From assembly GCF_006345805.1 (NCBI RefSeq), contig NC_043018.1, forward strand, positions 14,012,001 to 14,076,000: DNA of 64,000 nucleotides. Reading direction: 5' to 3'. How positions within the stretch are numbered: the stretch's first letter is position 1; the number at the start of each line of letters is the position of its first letter. The notes under the pieces are model-generated. The model saw only the letters and a list, made by a program, of their open reading frames with translations. It had not been told where the DNA came from and did no database searches. A program made the translations under genes and the position numbers. Shown in pieces: positions 14,993 through 47,156 of this stretch. This stretch comes from Octopus sinensis. Taxonomy: Eukaryota.

Positions 14993-15162
14993 ATAGATCG
15001 TTAGCCACTACACATTCTTTATTTTCGCTCCTTGTTTCTTTCTGAGGAAGAGCGTAGGCTCGAAACGTTAAAGGCTTTTTCAGTTCCCGAGCGTTAAACT
15101 AACGCATCTGTTTGTTGTCTACACCACCTTTCTTCGTCTTTTTTTTGTGAATTCTTTCCCTG
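14993..15162 (+). mobile_element. short PLE-derived element with minimal hammerhead (family H2)
   Basis: Lies between (CTA)n and (TA)n. Homologous to 58165-58390. HHR at 15038-15073: CUUU-CUGAGGA-A-GAGC-GUAG-GCUC-GAAAC-GUU/AAAG. Confidence 0.7.
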
Positions 15163-23424: not shown

Positions 23425-24972
23425 TTATTCATTAAATTTGCCATGTAGGCAGCACATAGATAAGGTAGCTTTGCGGGTTGCACATAGACATTGATGAGGC
23501 GAATGATTATGAATTAAAAATGATAAATGTCGGAAAAGACGGACAGCGCCCGCCGAAACCTCTGCTTCTCTAAAACATTGTTCTTTTAAAAACATCATAT
23601 ACAGAGGTATTAACCCTCTTACAATTTAAAATACAATATATTTGGACTAAAAAGCCCATACAATTATAAAACACAATTTATACACAAATTGGAGGCGATA
23701 AACCTCTACAATCCTTCCCCGAGTAATTTTCTTGCAACTTGCAGGCATTCCTGCAACCGCAATCCGGGGCTCCAAAAAGGAATTCTATAATTCTCGTTTT
23801 TACACGACTCAATTATGAGATGACAGTCCTTTCTTTCCAGCGCCAGAGCAGTCCCCTGCGGGAGGCCACTCTGGGCTATCAATACAAGTCGGGTCTCCTA
23901 GGACCCGATTATCCATATTATTCTCCACGAAATTGTCAATAGCACCTCCCCTGAAATAGCAGAACATATATTCTTCACCACTTTCACTGGGTGGGGACTC
24001 AACTCCCTCACTCGGTGGCACACATCCCACTGATAAGGTTATCTTCTTTCCCCCCTCCGGTGGCACACATACCTTTACGACGGGAGGGTGTAGTTCCTCC
24101 GACATCGCCGGAGGACCCTCTCCGCCCCCCACCCCCGCCGTCTCAGGATCCTTTCTCCCCCTCCAAAGGCATGCTCGCAAAATAACGAGCTTCCGCAGGG
24201 GTGTCAAAATGTTCACACACAGTTCCATACTTCGCACCCCTGCCGATAAACCTAACAGTTGGCTGATAATCTACCAACTCTTCCTCAATTTCTTCCTCAG
24301 AGAAGACCTTGATGGTGTCAAGGACCCTGTAATAGGTCCTTAACACCACCATTCTCTCCGTATAATTTTTCAACCATTCTTTGGGGCCAAAATTTACCAC
24401 TCCAATGCGGATTTCCCAGTTGTCATGTTGATAGCCAATACAAAAATAAAAATCCACAAACAAATATCAAACTGTTCAAATGAAAATCTATAAAGAAACT
24501 AAAAAAAAATCAGAAAGACAGACAGGAGAAGAAAGAGCGAAGGAAAATAATCCAAAATGGCAACACAACACAATTCTGCTACTCTGGTAATCCAAACTGG
24601 TAGTCCTTCGCAGCACAAATAGTATTCCGTCCAACCCTGGCTGTACTCCTATCATTTATGGTAAAAATCCACTTGAAGGGGTACAAAAACAGTCATAGAA
24701 AAATTCCAAATAAATTTTCGGACGGACACGCCTCTCGAAAACATACAATTCTCACTAAAATGTGAGTCTTTTAGTGCGACCTCTGGCAAAGAAATGTCTG
24801 GAACCCAGTGGAGACCCTTCTTCGAAAAAATAATAACCATACGGACAACAGACTTCCCTAAGCTCCCCCCCAAAAACAAATGCTTTAGCTGTGGTCGTGC
24901 TTCAAAAGTTAAATCTTTTACGTACGACGTGACTTCCATCGCGACGAAAAACAACACGACAACTTGATAGCA
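23425..24972 (-). mobile_element. 1.55-kb internally deleted non-LTR-type element with an ORF1-like remnant and 15-bp TSD
   Basis: GTAAGCAAGCTACTT occurs at 23410-23424 and 24973-24987. The minus strand ends in AATGAATAA adjacent to the TSD. Broken minus-strand ORFs at 23809-24463 have normal complexity. Confidence 0.7.
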
Positions 24973-25299
24973 GTAAGCAAGCTACTTACCACACAGCCAC
25001 TCCTGCGCCTAGTAGAAAATATTAGAAAACAGAAGGAAGTATTTCCTTCAGATATCATAAAGTAAGATAGAATTCAGAATTGCATGATTTTGAATTGAAT
25101 ATTGGATTTCAATCAAATATTTTTTTAATTTAATCACTTTCAAAATTCAATAATTTCCATCTGAATCACACTTTTAGATTAATCATTCACATATGATGAA
25201 GATTATTCAATTTAAGAACTGAATTACATAACACTTCTCGCTAAAGTAACGCTCTTCACTCTCTCACGTTAAGGCAATATTGACTGATAAAACAAATAG

Positions 25300-26751: not shown

Positions 26752-26795
<44 letters not shown>

Positions 26796-26833
26796 TTTGG
26801 GCGGATAACTAAATTATGTACAGTTCTTGGTAT

Positions 26834-26891
26834 ATTTCATTGACGAAGGCAGAGTACTTTTATATAGAGCCAGAAACCCAGGGTCTGGAAT
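26834..26891 (+). ncRNA. type-I hammerhead motif (C3U)
   Basis: AUUUCA-UUGACGA-A-GGC...GCC-A-GAAAC-CCAGG-GUC/UGGAAU. Confidence 0.6.
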
Positions 26892-27336
26892 TATCCATTT
26901 TTTTAACTAGTTTATTTATTTATTTGTCTTTTCATCTTGTTCTGTACGGGATACATGCGCCGATGCTGCTTATCATCCCTAATTAGTGGTTTGAGTTTTC
27001 TGCTGCTCTTTCTAGCACAAGGCTTTCCTATTTGGAAGCCTCTTAATGTGTTTTAACATACACGATATTTTTATGTGAATAATATATAGTCTAATGACTA
27101 ATTCTTTTTTTGTGTGTGCTAGGCCACTGGTAATAATAATTTCTATAATTCTTATTACTCTAATATTTTTTATTATGTTTAAATATTTTTTGATAAATTT
27201 GTTCGAAATTTTCCCGGCATCTTCTCTGTCGCCGGAAAGAAGCTGCATCGGCGCAGTGGTTCTGAAAAGTTAGCAAATACAAGCAGCTAGTTTACGTGTA
27301 GATCTAGTTGTGTGTATATTTGAAATCTAAAGGTCC

Positions 27337-27403
27337 CCTACTGACGAAGACTAGCCTCAGTAAATATTTTTTTACTGGAGTTAGTCTGAAACCATGGTCT
27401 AGG
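27337..27403 (+). ncRNA. intact-looking type-I hammerhead ribozyme
   Basis: CCUA-CUGACGA-AGACUA...UAGUCU (stem II about 16 bp)-GAAAC-CAUG-GUC/UAGG. Canonical core; predicted cleavage after 27399. Confidence 0.85.
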
Positions 27404-27541
27404 AACAAACTGAGATGGTAAACGTTTTTAATTTTCATTCCTTTCGAGTATTTATCCCTAATTAGTGGTTTGAGTTTTCTGCTGCTCTTTCTAGCACAAG
27501 GCTTTCCTATTTGGAAGCTTCTTAATGTGTTTTAACGTACA

Positions 27542-27584
<43 letters not shown>

Positions 27585-27614
27585 ATATATACTATATTTC
27601 ACAAGAATGGTGAT

Positions 27615-27660: not shown

Positions 27661-27769
27661 CGATGAACGTTAGTGGGCCAGAAATTCAAAGTCCCTGTTA
27701 CTACTATTCTTTTAAATTTATGACATCTACTCTTGTATTGAGTAATTTTTAAAATTGTTTTTTTATCAT

Positions 27770-28147
27770 AATGCTGGAGTACCGCTTTTAGTCGAGCAAA
27801 TCGACCCCGGGACTTATTCTTTGTAAGCCCAGTGCTTATTCTATCGGTCTCTTTTGCTGAAGAGCTAAGTGACGGGGACGTAAACACACCGGCATCGGTT
27901 GTCAAGCAATGCTAGGGAGACTAGCACAAACACACAAACACACAAATACACACACACACATACATATATATATACATATATACGACAGGCTTCTTTCAGT
28001 TTCCGTCTACCAAATCCAATCACAAAGCATTGGTCGGCCCGGGGCTATAGCGGAAGACATTTGCCCAAGATGCCACGCAGTGGGACTGAACCCGGAACCA
28101 TGTGGTTGGTTAGCAAGCTACTTACCACACAGCCACTCCTGCGCCTA
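27770..28147 (-). mobile_element. SINE family A, near full length
   Basis: Head at 28147, internal (CA)/(TA) tract, tail to about 27770. Confidence 0.88.
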
Positions 28148-28465
28148 TAATGTGACATAAAAAGAAACAAAATTCAAAATATGCAACCGTTAGTCCAGAC
28201 AAGATCTTTTTTGCAAATCAATCAAAATTTAAAACAGATTTACAAATTTAGAAATTGCTTCAAAAGGTATTTCCCGAGAGATTTCTAAATAAAAAGAAGT
28301 TATATAGCCAAAAATAAAGACGAAACGATTAGACGGAAATTAAAGAAATTTTCGCCTGCGGTTAAATCAATCGCTGCATTATAGAATAAACCGTGCCATT
28401 GTTACTGCAGTTAACTATTGTCGCGAAAATTTCAATCTTTATCTTAACTTGGCCTCATTTCGTTT

Positions 28466-28766: not shown

Positions 28767-29302
28767 TCTATGTTTTACTTTTGCTTTATATTTGTACAAG
28801 TTGGCTCCAAGTCTCACCCACAGACCTCAAGAGACAACAGGCTGGGAGTTCATGTTGTTGTTATGCCTAGTGTGCCATATATTTGGGTTTTTTTTTTAGT
28901 GTTGTACTAGTGAATGTCAAAAAAAAAATCTACGAAAAGTATGTTTGTTTTTATACTTGAGATTACATAGAAAGTATTTTGCGTAGGATATGAGCAGTTC
29001 CCATGTGCACTATCTTTTGAATTTCTGCCATTTTGGGGTTTCCTGGTATCTGAGTTAGGTAGCAATCAGCCCCTTTTGCTATCATTCCCAGGGCACCTAT
29101 GACAACAGGTATTGTTTTAGTCTTCAGGTTCCACATTTTGCTGATTTCTATTTCAAGATCTTTATATTTGCTCAGTTTTTGGTAGGTCTTGACAGATACG
29201 TTTATATCGATTGGGACAGTCATATCAATGAGGAGGTATGTTCTTTGTCTGACGTCTTTCAATATGATGTCTGGCCTATTTGCATCTATCTTTCTGTCAG
29301 TC
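28767..29302 (-). mobile_element. 3' end of R4/Dong-like LINE: restriction-like endonuclease domain plus 3' UTR
   Basis: Open frame TDRKIDANRPDIILKD...LLIDMTVPIDINVSVKTYQKLSKYKDL...IPVVIGALG... ends at 28963 and matches the PD-(D/E)xK RLE motif. Ends in (TAA)n. Confidence 0.9.
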
Positions 29303-29950
29303 TAAACAAAATACCAGGAACTTTAGACTACAAGAACTCAAAAACACTCTAATTGACAGACATTACCCAGTTCAACTCATAGAGGATGGGATCAGACGTG
29401 CAACAGAAATCGACATAGTAACTTTGAGAAAAGTTCAACACACAACACACCTTCCCCGAAAATACTGCCTTACATATCCACATACAACCCCAGAAACAAA
29501 GAAGCCTTCACCATCATCACCCAGAATTTACCAATGCTTCATAAGGACCCCAAATTAAAGGAAATTCTAAACATACATAAAATCATTAAAAGCTACAAAC
29601 AAGCTAAATCACTTAAAAAGATTCTCACAAAGGCAAAATTGTTTTCTGAAATTACGGATGCAAAAGTAAAAAATGTGGTAGACCAAACTGTGCAACATGC
29701 CCAAACCTTCTAGAAGGATCAGAATTCCTTTTCAAAGAGGGAAAAAAAATTCAAGATCAGATCTAATTTTACTTGTACTTCTGAAAACATAATTTATGTC
29801 ATAAGATGCTCGGGCTGCCACCAAAACTACGTGGGGTCCACGGGGCTATCACTCAGACGCCGCTGCACTCTGCATCGAAAACAGATTGCATTCCCAGAAT
29901 ACAGAATGATACCCTTTAGTGAGCATATTGAGAAATGCGCAAAGCAACTA
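29303..29950 (+). mobile_element. Penelope-like element fragment: RT thumb, Cys-rich linker and GIY-YIG endonuclease (Neptune-like)
   Basis: With frameshifts: RLQELKNTLIDRHYP...; KCGRPNCATCP; FTCTSENIIYVIRCSGCHQNYVGSTGLSLRRRCTLH...FSEHIEKC. Confidence 0.88.
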
Positions 29951-30725
29951 CTACCACAATGACTGAAACAAGTAAAAGAGAGAAAAAGAGAGTATATATA
30001 TATATATATATATATATGGATGTATTATACGTACATGCATACACATATATTTATACATATTCATATATGCATATATGTGTGTATATGCATGTATTATGCA
30101 TGTATGAATATATGCATGCGTGTATGTACGTAAGAATGAATGCATGTATGTATGTGTGTGTGTATGTATGTATGTATGTATGTATGAAACATTCAAAATA
30201 GGATACGTAAAATAACTATTTTGCAAGAATTGTGTTATTTATTACACCCATTCCCTGTCTAATGGAAGTCGAAAGTCTGCGGTTGTGCAATCATGTTTTT
30301 ATAAAGACACAGTGATAATATTTCAAGTAGATATTGTCTTTACGTGACGACAAACAGACTTCCTTGGAAATGGAGTTTTATATCTTCTCATTTTCAATTT
30401 ATAAATTCTTAATGATTTCCATCATTTCCTATATATCAAGTCGGAAATAATTAAAATCTAGAAAAATTCTAATGCGTTTGTGTGTATGTTTTTCTTTCTG
30501 CATGTAATTACACAAATGCTATCATCCAAGCACACACAATCGCACACTTATTCACGAAAATACATATCTATGTACACGCAGGCGACATGTATGTGCAACC
30601 TACGCTCCACATTTATACATAGATATATATATACATGTATATACATTTACATATACATACATACATACATACATACATACATACATACATACATACATAC
30701 ACACACATACACACACACACACACA

Positions 30726-46122: not shown

Positions 46123-47156
46123 TTGCCAGATCTTTCGTCTACGAAGTTTGTAAGGAGCTAGAGACTGAACATGGAAACGTATCGCCAGTATCAAAGCATA
46201 AAAAACATTCTAAACGCTCTGAAATCAAATCATCAGAACACCGGAATTTATCCAACAAATTCAACAGACCATTGTTTACAATCCCGAAAAGTCCATGAGG
46301 TCAATTGCAAAATATTTCCATGTATCAGAAAGAACAGTCAGAAATGTTGTCCACGAAGATATCAGATACAAGTCTTATATGTTGAGGAAAGTTCAATTTG
46401 TCAGAAAAGGCAAAAGAAAATCACACCATCAGATCTAAAAGGCTCTTAAACAATTTGAAAAATCCAGCTGAAGAAGATCTGGTTTGGTTTTTCTCAGAAA
46501 AACTTCGACCACAATCAAAAGTTAACCAGAGAAACGACAGATGGTTATATGCAGACCCTTCTTAAGTTATGCATACAAAATTTCCTGGAACTGTCATGGT
46601 TTTGGGGGTTGTCAGCAATGAAGGACATGTGATATACCTCCTTACTTCTTTCCACAAAGCCCTTAGAGTTAACTCTGCCGCCTACATTGAGGTCCTGGAA
46701 ATAATTGTTAAGCCCTAGATAGATAGTATATGCAATGGAAGGCCAAATGTGTATCAGTAAGACTCTATTCTATCACACACGGTTCTAGTAACACAGGAAT
46801 GAATGGCTGAATGATCACATGACCCCTAACATTTGGCCTCCTAATTCTCCAGATCTCAATCCAGTGGACTATTACATGTGGAGCTTTGTTAAGAGAGAGG
46901 TCAATGAACATGCCTACAATACCAAAAGTTCTTTGAAAGCAGCCATAATCAGAATAATGTTCAAAATGAACCCGAACAACTTGATTCGAGCATATAGAAG
47001 CAGCCGTTGAAGCTTAAGGTGGCTTGATTGAATAACATTCTAGAAAAGAAGGTTTATTTTTATCTTCAGAGCATTTTTTGATAGTTATTATCTGTTATTA
47101 TAGATTTGTTTTTTTTTATAAACATAAATCTGTCCTCAAATATCTTACGCACTCTG
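46120..47156 (+). mobile_element. decayed Tc1/mariner transposon (maT/DD37D-like transposase pseudogene)
   Basis: WFFSEKNFD...NQRNDRW...TKFPGTVMVLGVVSNEG...YIEVLEIIVKP...WPPNSPDLNPVDYYMWS. Ends ...TCTTACGCACTCTG-TA. Confidence 0.85.

What the first reader, a model, noticed from the sequence alone, without database searches (positions are those of the whole stretch)
26793..27545. Two co-oriented hammerheads delimit a 514-nt retrozyme-like unit
Seen: predicted cleavage sites after 26885 and after 27399 on the same strand; a ~92-bp direct repeat with period about 479; an internal inverted pair GCGCCGATGCTGCTT (about 26957) and AAGCTGCATCGGCGC (about 27240); (TA)n on both sides; no ORF. The second HHR is fully canonical. 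The two HHRs differ in sequence. Established: retrozymes excise monomers between HHRs, and these monomers can circularise. Inference: this is either a candidate source of circular RNA or a chimera of two pLTR types.
Basis: partly seen in the sequence, partly recalled or inferred. Interest (0 to 1): 0.7.

Follow-up and report, generated by a model that had tools for sequence, protein, structure and literature searches.

The report
Chimeric two-ribozyme Penelope-type retroelement insertion
A 753-base non-coding insert in a TA repeat carries two different hammerhead-ribozyme motifs and a duplicated 92-base end, and is likely a one-off hybrid of two related mobile RNAs copied by a Penelope-type retrotransposon rather than a dedicated source of a 514-base circular RNA.

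Summary
Two co-oriented type I hammerhead motifs have predicted cuts after 26885 and 27399 (514 nt apart). A 92-bp repeat (90/92 identical, period 479), a 16-bp inverted pair and (TA)n flanks are all present. Corrections: HHR1 has two core-region changes (U3; A·A at the base of stem II), HHR2 is not fully canonical, and a third hammerhead of this type sits in its own (TA)n-flanked insert at 7115-7357.

The 514-nt retrozyme-monomer reading is weak. Both hammerheads lie outside the repeat, the repeat period is not 514, each ribozyme's stems fit only its own flanks, and the two pair poorly as a dimer. The anatomy fits a Penelope-like (PLE) partial tandem whose two pseudo-LTRs share a 3' end but carry different sibling ribozyme modules, probably joined by a reverse-transcriptase template switch.

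No second copy of the whole arrangement was found, no host genome or RNA data could be searched, and cleavage is untested. Verdict: a mosaic variant of known PLE-derived ribozyme elements, of moderate interest.

The parts
26755..26792 (.). Left (TA)n tract; likely half of the split target site
   Evidence: sequence
26793..26839 (+). 5' end of the insert and pre-HHR1 segment (47 nt before the core; includes stem I 5' strand 26834-26839); weakly similar to the pre-HHR2 segment at offset 484
   Evidence: (52-125 of 2000 shuffles reach the score)
26834..26891 (+). HHR1, type I hammerhead motif: 6-bp stem I, core with U3 (26840-26846), A·A at the base of stem II, stem III 9-nt near-palindrome 26876-26884, predicted cut after 26885; likely impaired
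   Evidence: stem II related to HHR3 (3 of 1000 shuffles)
26886..26974 (+). Post-HHR1 segment X (89 nt); 26905-26971 is predicted to pair with 27240-27292 as four collinear helices (8+7+7+16 bp)
   Evidence: (extension beyond the 16-bp arm: 5 of 400 shuffles, post hoc)
26956..26971 (+). Left arm of the 16-bp inverted pair, ending 3 nt before the first repeat copy
26975..27066 (+). R1, first copy of the 92-bp shared 3' module
27067..27087 (+). 21-nt AT-rich linker (likely part of the unit or a PLE-type tail; possibly a decayed TA remnant)
   Evidence: junction print; inference
27088..27170 (+). Body segment with a paralogue at 3730-3806; predicted to pair with R through two adjacent helices (7+8 bp)
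   Evidence: z -4.9, 0 of 200; 0 of 300
27240..27255 (+). Right arm of the 16-bp inverted pair
27293..27340 (+). Pre-HHR2 segment; the inferred crossover between the two sibling modules lies near its start (about 27290-27305)
   Evidence: inference
27337..27403 (+). HHR2, type I hammerhead motif: 4-bp stem I, full consensus core 27341-27347, long stem II 27348-27387, stem III 8-nt palindrome 27391-27398, predicted cut after 27399
27400..27453 (+). Post-HHR2 segment (54 nt), not alignable to X
   Evidence: 178 of 300 shuffles reach the score
27454..27545 (+). R2, second copy of the 92-bp module and 3' end of the insert
27544..27597 (.). Right (TA)n tract
7115..7357 (+). Related solo insert between two (TA)n tracts with a third hammerhead of the same design (core 7159, cut after 7207, 11-nt near-palindromic stem III; core 44 nt from the 5' end, cut 150 nt from the 3' end)
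3730..3806 (+). Short paralogue of the body segment between AT-rich microsatellites; still predicted to bind R, more weakly
   Evidence: 12 of 300

Best explanation
The 753-bp insert is a non-coding sequence in a split (TA)n tract with two different hammerhead motifs and a duplicated 92-bp end, and is likely a non-autonomous Penelope-like (PLE) partial tandem whose two pseudo-LTRs come from two sibling ribozyme modules joined by an inferred template switch. Shown: four blocks recur in the same order at offsets of 479-514 (pre-HHR 484, weak; core 501; cut 514; R 479), and only R is near-identical. Inferred: an autonomous TA-targeting PLE (GIY-YIG endonuclease plus reverse transcriptase, supplied in trans) nicked the (TA)n and began cDNA at the 3' end of R2 on an uncleaved RNA. 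It copied about 250 nt of the HHR2-type module, switched near 27290-27305 to a sibling HHR1-type RNA, copied about 500 nt and stopped. Predicted: each hammerhead is built to cut as a self-dimer through its palindromic stem III, so in this mixed copy each would have to act alone or pair with transcripts of other copies. HHR2 would cut modestly and HHR1 poorly, so a 514-nt RNA would be at most a minor by-product.
For: Geometry. HHR and period do not coincide as in a true dimer: cut spacing 514 vs repeat period 479. The downstream about 250 nt has the geometry of the solo insert at 7115-7357 (core about 48 vs 44 nt from the 5' end; cut 146 vs 150 nt from the 3' end).

Each module fits itself. Cognate stem I is 6 and 4 bp, swapped stem I 1 and 3 bp; stem III self-dimers are -11.6, -11.2 and -13.9 kcal/mol against -6.1 for HHR1:HHR2. 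The upstream about 500 nt folds as one unit: X pairs with 27240-27292 in four collinear helices, and the 484-nt circle 26822-27305 has z -5.2. The R1+linker+body domain has z -4.9, 0 of 200. The downstream 253 nt has its own closing helices (27316-27325 with 27442-27451; z -2.3). HHR1 stem II is related to HHR3 (3 of 1000).

Literature. Partial tandems, pLTRs, tails and (TA)n targeting are PLE hallmarks (PMC8557442 sections 6, 11, 15). Hydra-clade PLEs carry sense hammerheads with palindromic stem III near the 3' end: by my arithmetic on supplementary File S2 the cut is about 30-155 nt from the end in 23 of 24 sense, 3'-located rows. Uncleaved RNA is the main insertion template of a PLE in vitro (PMC11167929). 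A PLE coding remnant (RT thumb, CX4CxxC linker, GIY-YIG) lies at 29301-29965.
Against: No second copy of either full unit was seen, so the two sibling families are inferred from one locus and two fragments. The pre-HHR homology (p about 0.03-0.06) and the helix extension (5 of 400; 9 of 300 unanchored; 285 of 1000 as plain DNA similarity) are modest and post hoc. The 479-nt alternative unit also folds better than shuffles (z -3.1 to -3.8). HHR1's two core-region changes suggest an older sequence than the 2% between R1 and R2. No sequence link ties R or either hammerhead to a named PLE: of five motif searches in the PMC8557442 supplement, the two motifs from R and the body gave 0 and the hammerhead motifs hit only unrelated contexts. 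The 514-nt interval has the best folding score of all intervals tested.
Confidence: 0.55

Rival explanations
1. The real unit is 479 nt (R + linker + body + HHR2 + 54 nt), inserted as a 1.19-mer at 26975-27545. The 16-bp arm is a fold-back made at the 5' truncation point, and 26793-26955 is an older or captured HHR1 fragment of the 7115-type family.
For: 479 is the exact repeat period and R1/R2 differ at only two positions, as expected from one template. The arm ends 3 nt from the R1 start. Inverted pieces at PLE 5' junctions are common (PMC8557442 section 6). The 479-nt circle has z -3.1 to -3.5 and 27088-27545 alone about -3.8. HHR1 looks older than the R duplication.
Against: It leaves the further 22 predicted base pairs in register with the arm to chance (5 of 400), and likewise the position of HHR1 one period upstream of HHR2 and the weak pre-HHR similarity. 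In the 479-nt folds the GC-rich arm has no helix of 6 bp or more.
Confidence: 0.2
2. One reading: the whole insert is a recurring composite whose two different hammerheads excise a structured 514-nt RNA that is circularised by an RtcB-type ligase and reverse-transcribed like a retrozyme.
For: Both motifs are co-oriented. The 514-nt interval has z -6.7 linear (0 of 100) and -6.0 circular, against a minimum of -3.85 in 21 microsatellite-free control windows. The long X:arm helix is predicted to close the domain that holds both ends. Animal retrozyme monomers are ligated mostly by RtcB in vitro (PMC7229834). A natural U3 core variant is described as slower but presumably functional (PMC7151607 passage).
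Against: A circle-derived insertion should repeat with period 514 and carry the same ribozyme twice; it does neither. The rebuilt junction ribozyme has a 3-bp stem I and costs 10.8 kcal/mol to form, against 7.4-7.9 for the cognate ones. Mixed dimerisation is poor. 514 nt is above the 170-400 nt reported for expressed animal retrozymes (PMC7229834), though predicted families reach 972 bp (bioRxiv 10.64898/2026.07.22.740005). In that preprint 8 of 9 tested true dimers gave no cleavage product.
Confidence: 0.15
3. Two separate short elements (26793-27066 and 27088-27545) that share a 3' end inserted one after the other into the same (TA)n tract, the linker being a decayed TA remnant.
For: The paralogue at 3730 starts at the same base as 27088, after an AT run. 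PLEs are reported to insert next to earlier copies (PMC6765202 passage), and the window shows such neighbours (6800-7076 and 7115-7357 separated by (TA)n).
Against: The linker has only three to four AT repeats and would need many changes, while R1/R2 differ by two. Independent inserts would not be expected to share a 16-bp complement. The shared start at 3730 can be explained by microhomology of the linker's ATATAT with the target (inference).
Confidence: 0.08
4. Chance motifs or an assembly join.
For: The window is repeat-rich and Rfam finds no hammerhead.
Against: 0 strict descriptor hits in 30 shuffled windows; three motifs share one design, with palindromic stem III and (TA)n flanks; R1 and R2 differ at two positions and have different flanks.
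Confidence: 0.02

Closest known systems
pLTR / 3' end of HHR-bearing Penelope-like elements, closest in design to the Hydra clade (PMC8557442; PMC4209133)
   Same: Sense type I hammerhead near the 3' end, palindromic stem III, long stem II with an extra nucleotide after A9, (TA)n target with no discernible target-site duplication, partial-tandem layout.
   Different: No ORF. The two pLTR-like halves share only the last 92 bp and carry different ribozymes. Stem II is 26-40 nt, longer than most rows of the Hydra table seen. No sequence match to the cephalopod Hydra or Naiad consensus ends I could read by eye.
Animal non-LTR retrozymes (PMC7229834; bioRxiv 10.64898/2026.07.22.740005)
   Same: Non-coding, low GC, type I hammerheads, strongly self-paired predicted fold, few-hundred-nt scale, likely PLE-mobilised; known in molluscs (mussel).
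   Different: Retrozymes are tandem repeats with the same hammerhead in each unit, so cut spacing equals period. Here the ribozymes differ, lie outside the near-identical repeat, and spacing (514) differs from period (479). Expression and circles untested.
Non-autonomous PLE derivatives such as Chlamys MRC1 (PMC8557442 passage)
   Same: Non-coding elements that form pLTRs or head-to-tail copies and share a 3' end with a partner family.
   Different: Those lack canonical hammerheads and have an identified autonomous partner; none is identified here.
Plant LTR retrozymes (as described in the two retrozyme papers read)
   Same: Two hammerheads flanking a non-coding body, direct repeats at the ends.
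   Different: Those have type III hammerheads inside identical LTRs, with PBS, PPT and 4-bp target duplications; here type I, outside the repeat, in (TA)n.

Membership tests
Type I hammerhead ribozyme | Core C3UGANGA...GAAA...UH with three stems | tested here: met
   HHR2 and HHR3 have all consensus core bases and three stems; HHR1 has all but C3
Type I hammerhead ribozyme | C3 (pairs with G8) in HHR1 | tested here: not met
   U at 26840; in a PLE hammerhead C3G or G8C abolish cleavage (PMC11167929); a natural U3 variant is described as slower (PMC7151607)
Type I hammerhead ribozyme | Match to an Rfam hammerhead model | tested here: not met
   no hammerhead family at gathering score or E<=10; long stem II variants may escape the models (inference)
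Type I hammerhead ribozyme | Self-cleavage at the predicted site | not testable with these tools
   catalytic folds cost 6.4 (HHR1) and 8.2 (HHR2) kcal/mol in the 753-nt RNA, tertiary contacts not modelled
Animal non-LTR retrozyme | Tandem repeat with the hammerhead inside each unit (cut spacing equals period) | tested here: not met
   period 479 vs spacing 514; hammerheads outside the 92-bp repeat; post-cut segments unalignable
Animal non-LTR retrozyme | Non-coding, low GC, highly self-paired unit | tested here: met
   GC 0.33-0.35; z -3.1 to -6.7
Animal non-LTR retrozyme | Monomer regenerates a complete hammerhead on circularisation | tested here: not met
   junction stem I 3 bp; forming cost 10.8 vs 7.4-7.9 kcal/mol
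Animal non-LTR retrozyme | Expressed as linear and circular monomers; many genomic copies | not testable with these tools
   no host genome or RNA collection available
PLE-derived non-autonomous element (pLTR type) | Sense type I hammerhead with palindromic stem III near the 3' end | tested here: met
   cuts 146 (HHR2) and 150 nt (HHR3) before the 3' (TA)n, HHR1 181 nt before the end of R1; palindromes in all three
PLE-derived non-autonomous element (pLTR type) | Insertion into (TA)n | tested here: met
   both flanks, also for 7115-7357
PLE-derived non-autonomous element (pLTR type) | Partial tandem with a duplicated 3' end | tested here: met
   R1/R2; duplication limited to 92 bp
PLE-derived non-autonomous element (pLTR type) | Sequence shared with the pLTR of an autonomous PLE | tested here: inconclusive
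   no match in five motif searches and three consensus ends read from one supplement; the PLE remnant at 29301-29965 lacks its 3' UTR
Autonomous PLE | ORF with RT and GIY-YIG endonuclease between the pLTRs | tested here: not met
   longest frame 85 codons, no Pfam or protein-library match
Plant LTR retrozyme | Type III hammerhead within identical LTRs | tested here: not met
   type I topology, outside the repeat

The most novel reading that the evidence does not exclude
This genome holds a population of small PLE-parasite RNAs that keep a conserved 92-nt 3' module for recruiting the reverse transcriptase and swap ribozyme modules. This locus is a recombinant caught in the act: two different hammerheads release a well-folded 514-nt RNA that circularises with a hybrid ribozyme at the junction and can found a new retrozyme family. 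It would be a direct snapshot of how retrozymes arise from pLTRs and why PLE hammerheads are so variable within one genome.
Probability: 0.15. Interest if true: 0.7.

Novelty: new variant of a known kind. Interest (0 to 1): 0.38.

Why it matters
Hammerheads in PLE ends and PLE-derived retrozymes are known and abundant in invertebrates, so the parts are ordinary. The unusual point is one near-identical 3' module joined to two different ribozyme modules, each fitted to its own flanks. If that pattern recurs in the genome, it would mark the 92-nt module as the likely cis signal for PLE mobilisation in trans and show ribozyme modules being exchanged by recombination. That bears on two open questions named in the papers read: why PLE hammerheads are so variable within a genome (PMC4209133), and how retrozymes derive from pLTRs (bioRxiv 10.64898/2026.07.22.740005). 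The locus also gives a ready natural test of monomer, self-dimer and mixed-dimer cleavage. If it is single-copy and silent, it is a curiosity of retrotransposon debris.

Tried and rejected
LOOKING FOR OTHER COPIES. Rfam: no hammerhead match. Prokaryotic genome scan with a 24-nt piece of R: 0 matches. The same collection with a gapped HHR2 pattern: 2 matches, about 2 expected by my rough estimate, and by eye neither has a hammerhead stem I, so rejected as chance. Non-coding reading frames of the insert used as protein queries to catch other copies: 0 candidates and 0 hits at E<=0.001 among 1.84 billion representatives. These negatives say little, since such frames are rarely predicted as proteins. 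BLAST of 12 modules against the window found only R2, the 3730 fragment and the 7115 element as relatives of the insert. Metagenome and viral contig collections and any eukaryotic genome or RNA-seq set stayed unchecked.

IDEAS TESTED AND DROPPED. That the post-cut segments of HHR1 or HHR2 are homologous to each other or to that of HHR3: 178 of 300, 342 of 1000, 802 of 1000. That the 5' body is a decayed inverted copy of R at DNA level: 556 of 1000; only RNA pairing is significant. That 3730-3806 is a minus-strand relative of the 7115 element's end: 22 of 1000 among 13 comparisons, not accepted. That the three insert types share the pre-HHR3 sequence: not significant. The ESM Atlas gave no usable hit for the PLE linker. 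The sigma-70 promoter scan is not meaningful for a eukaryote and was at chance level.

LITERATURE. Nine searches listed no paper whose title or abstract opening describes a two-different-hammerhead PLE derivative or a cephalopod retrozyme. Only listings were seen for most, and subscription papers are not covered. PMC5785218 (PLE hammerhead dimers) was not held and the supplement of PMC7229834 could not be read; either may hold similar motifs, as may the preprint's supplements, which were not seen.

Full report
CONTEXT. The window is AT-rich (GC 0.25-0.41) and dense in microsatellites (142 rows). It has no Rfam match at gathering score. Of 149 reading frames sent to Pfam (drawn mostly from the 216 listed), 2 matched, both DNA-transposon domains; 12 longer frames scanned gave nothing at a curated cut-off. 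It is repeat-rich eukaryotic DNA. From recalled repeat sequences it looks like an octopus genome; that label comes from memory and from no call.

OBSERVATION. The coordinates are right. A type I hammerhead descriptor found three motifs, all on the + strand: cores at 7159, 26840 and 27341, with predicted cuts after 7207, 26885 and 27399. In 30 block-shuffled windows the loose descriptor gave 10 hits in all and the strict one 0. The descriptor was written after seeing the motifs. The 92-bp repeat has period 479 and two substitutions. The 16-bp inverted pair is matched in 2 of 200 shuffles. (TA)n flanks both ends. The longest frame is 85 codons, without Pfam or library match.

THE RIBOZYMES. All three share CUGACGA or UUGACGA, then A, a stem II region of 26-40 nt, GAAA, and a self-complementary stem III. 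HHR2 has the full consensus core, but a 4-bp core-adjacent stem I, an A-U pair opening stem II and a 2-bp stem III, so 'fully canonical' overstates it; Rfam misses it even at E<=10. HHR1 has U3 and an A·A mismatch where the other two have C3 and A-U, which suggests decay (inference). Stem III strands dimerise with themselves at -11.6, -11.2 and -13.9 kcal/mol, and HHR1 with HHR2 at only -6.1. Core-adjacent stem I is 6 and 4 bp for the cognate pairs, 1 and 3 bp for the swapped pairs that a mixed double hammerhead or a 514-nt circle would need. The catalytic folds are not the predicted ground state in the 753-nt RNA (cost 6.4 and 8.2 kcal/mol); this ignores tertiary contacts and protein help. 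PLE hammerheads are reported to work as dimers with low activity (PMC4209133, parts 1-2 of 4 read; PMC6765202, passages) and, in one case, only with the element's protein (PMC11167929, parts 1-2 of 4 read).

ANATOMY. The order is (TA)n - pre-HHR1 - HHR1 - X (89 nt) - R1 - linker - body - arm - pre-HHR2 - HHR2 - 54 nt - R2 - (TA)n. Offsets between like blocks are 484 (pre-HHR; 52-125 of 2000 shuffles, weak), 501 (core), 514 (cut) and 479 (R). X and the 54-nt segment do not align (178 of 300). HHR1's stem II is closer to HHR3's (3 of 1000). The last about 250 nt mirror the solo insert at 7115-7357 in size and hammerhead position. The fragment at 3730-3806 is a paralogue of the body start (82% over 57 nt).

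STRUCTURE. The 514-nt interval folds well: z -6.7 linear (0 of 100) and -6.0 circular, against -3.85 at best in 21 control windows scored with 10 shuffles each. Other intervals do too: the 479-nt circles z -3.1 and -3.5, the 484-nt circle 26822-27305 z -5.2, and 26975-27135 z -4.9. 26793-27066 alone does not (z -0.7). Two long-range pairings drive this. R pairs with the body start (0 of 300; the 3730 paralogue 12 of 300). X pairs with 27240-27292 in four collinear helices; the part beyond the 16-bp arm is reached by 5 of 400 anchored shuffles and 9 of 300 unanchored, but is not significant as DNA similarity (285 of 1000). These last tests are post hoc. Both pairings lie wholly within the upstream about 500 nt, and the downstream 253 nt has its own closing helices.

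MECHANISM. Shown: the layout, the offsets, the stem fits and the (TA)n site. From the literature: PLEs insert in microsatellites, form partial tandems with pLTRs, tails and inverted pieces, and the Hydra clade has sense, palindromic-stem-III hammerheads near the 3' end and (TA)n targets, including a family from an octopus (PMC8557442: passages, sections 6, 11, 15, supplement parts 2, 24 and 52 of 59 and four term searches). Inferred: a PLE enzyme acting in trans primed at the (TA)n, copied an uncleaved HHR2-type RNA from R2, switched near 27290-27305 to a sibling HHR1-type RNA and truncated at 26793. A frameshifted PLE remnant with RT thumb, CX4CxxC linker and GIY-YIG (Pfam E 0.0014, below the curated cut-off) lies at 29301-29965, 93-94% identical over matched stretches to library protein P0001. 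It shows that such elements exist in this genome, not that this family moved the insert. I put 0.55 on this reading, 0.2 on a 479-nt unit with a fold-back and captured HHR1 piece, 0.15 on a recurring 514-nt circle producer, 0.08 on two separate insertions and 0.02 on artefact.

AGAINST THE 514-NT MONOMER. Retrozymes are tandem repeats with the same hammerhead in every unit (PMC7229834, parts 2-4 of 6 read; bioRxiv 10.64898/2026.07.22.740005, parts 1-3 of 5 read), so cut spacing equals period and the circle rebuilds the ribozyme. Neither holds here. In its favour: the folding score, the fact that RtcB ligation needs only the cut ends (PMC7229834), and a natural U3 variant described as slower but presumably functional (PMC7151607, two passages).

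LIMITS. No other full copy could be sought in a eukaryotic collection. The prokaryotic scans and protein-frame searches were negative or chance. Nothing here shows transcription or cleavage. PMC5785218 and the supplement of PMC7229834 could not be read. PMC6431247 was seen in passages only.

VERDICT. It works like a PLE-derived non-autonomous hammerhead element. It fails the retrozyme membership test on tandem identity. The mosaic of two ribozyme modules on one shared end was not described in the listings of nine literature searches, but rests on a single locus. New variant of a known kind; interest 0.38.

Noticed in passing
window 7115-7357 +: Solo (TA)n-flanked 243-bp insert with a third long-stem-II type I hammerhead, full consensus core, predicted cut after A7207; probably the cleanest member of this type in the window for an activity test.
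   Followed up: yes
window 29301-29965 +: Frameshifted Penelope-like coding remnant (RT thumb, CX4CxxC linker, GIY-YIG), Neptune/Nematis-like by the linker motif described in PMC8557442; ends shortly before the (TA)n at 29993 without a 3' UTR.
   Followed up: partly
window 15042-15070 +: Minimal PLE-type hammerhead (4-bp stem II, no real stem III) about 95 nt before a (TA)n; the element has a 76% paralogue at 58168-58323.
   Followed up: partly
window 6954-6985 + and 4672-4855 -: Degenerate minimal hammerhead in a repeat ending at (TA)n just upstream of the 7115 insert; an 87% paralogue lies at 4672-4855 on the minus strand.
   Followed up: partly
window 2068-2035 -: Another hammerhead-like core about 125 nt before a (TA)n tract; stems not checked.
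   Followed up: no
window 27274-27322 +: Strong local hairpin just upstream of HHR2 that competes with the X pairing for 27274-27292; a possible conformational switch.
   Followed up: partly
window 26905-26927 with 27273-27292: Departures from perfect complementarity in the outer X helices seen by eye are G opposite U, which keeps pairing; fits selection on RNA pairing or A-to-I editing before reverse transcription (speculative, three positions).
   Followed up: no
window 46223-47007 +: DNA-transposon remnant: Pfam HTH_Tnp_ISL3 (E 3.5e-5) and DDE_3 (E 1.1e-4), both below curated cut-offs.
   Followed up: no
window 23700-24990: GC-richer stretch with several 100-150-codon frames and folding z -3.85 at 23801; no Pfam match; probably another retroelement remnant.
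   Followed up: no
window 52701-53093 -: Weak endonuclease-reverse-transcriptase domain match (Exo_endo_phos_2, E 0.015), likely a LINE remnant.
   Followed up: no
window 27720-28150: Two SINE-like repeats directly downstream of the insert, resembling octopus repeats as recalled; not tested.
   Followed up: no
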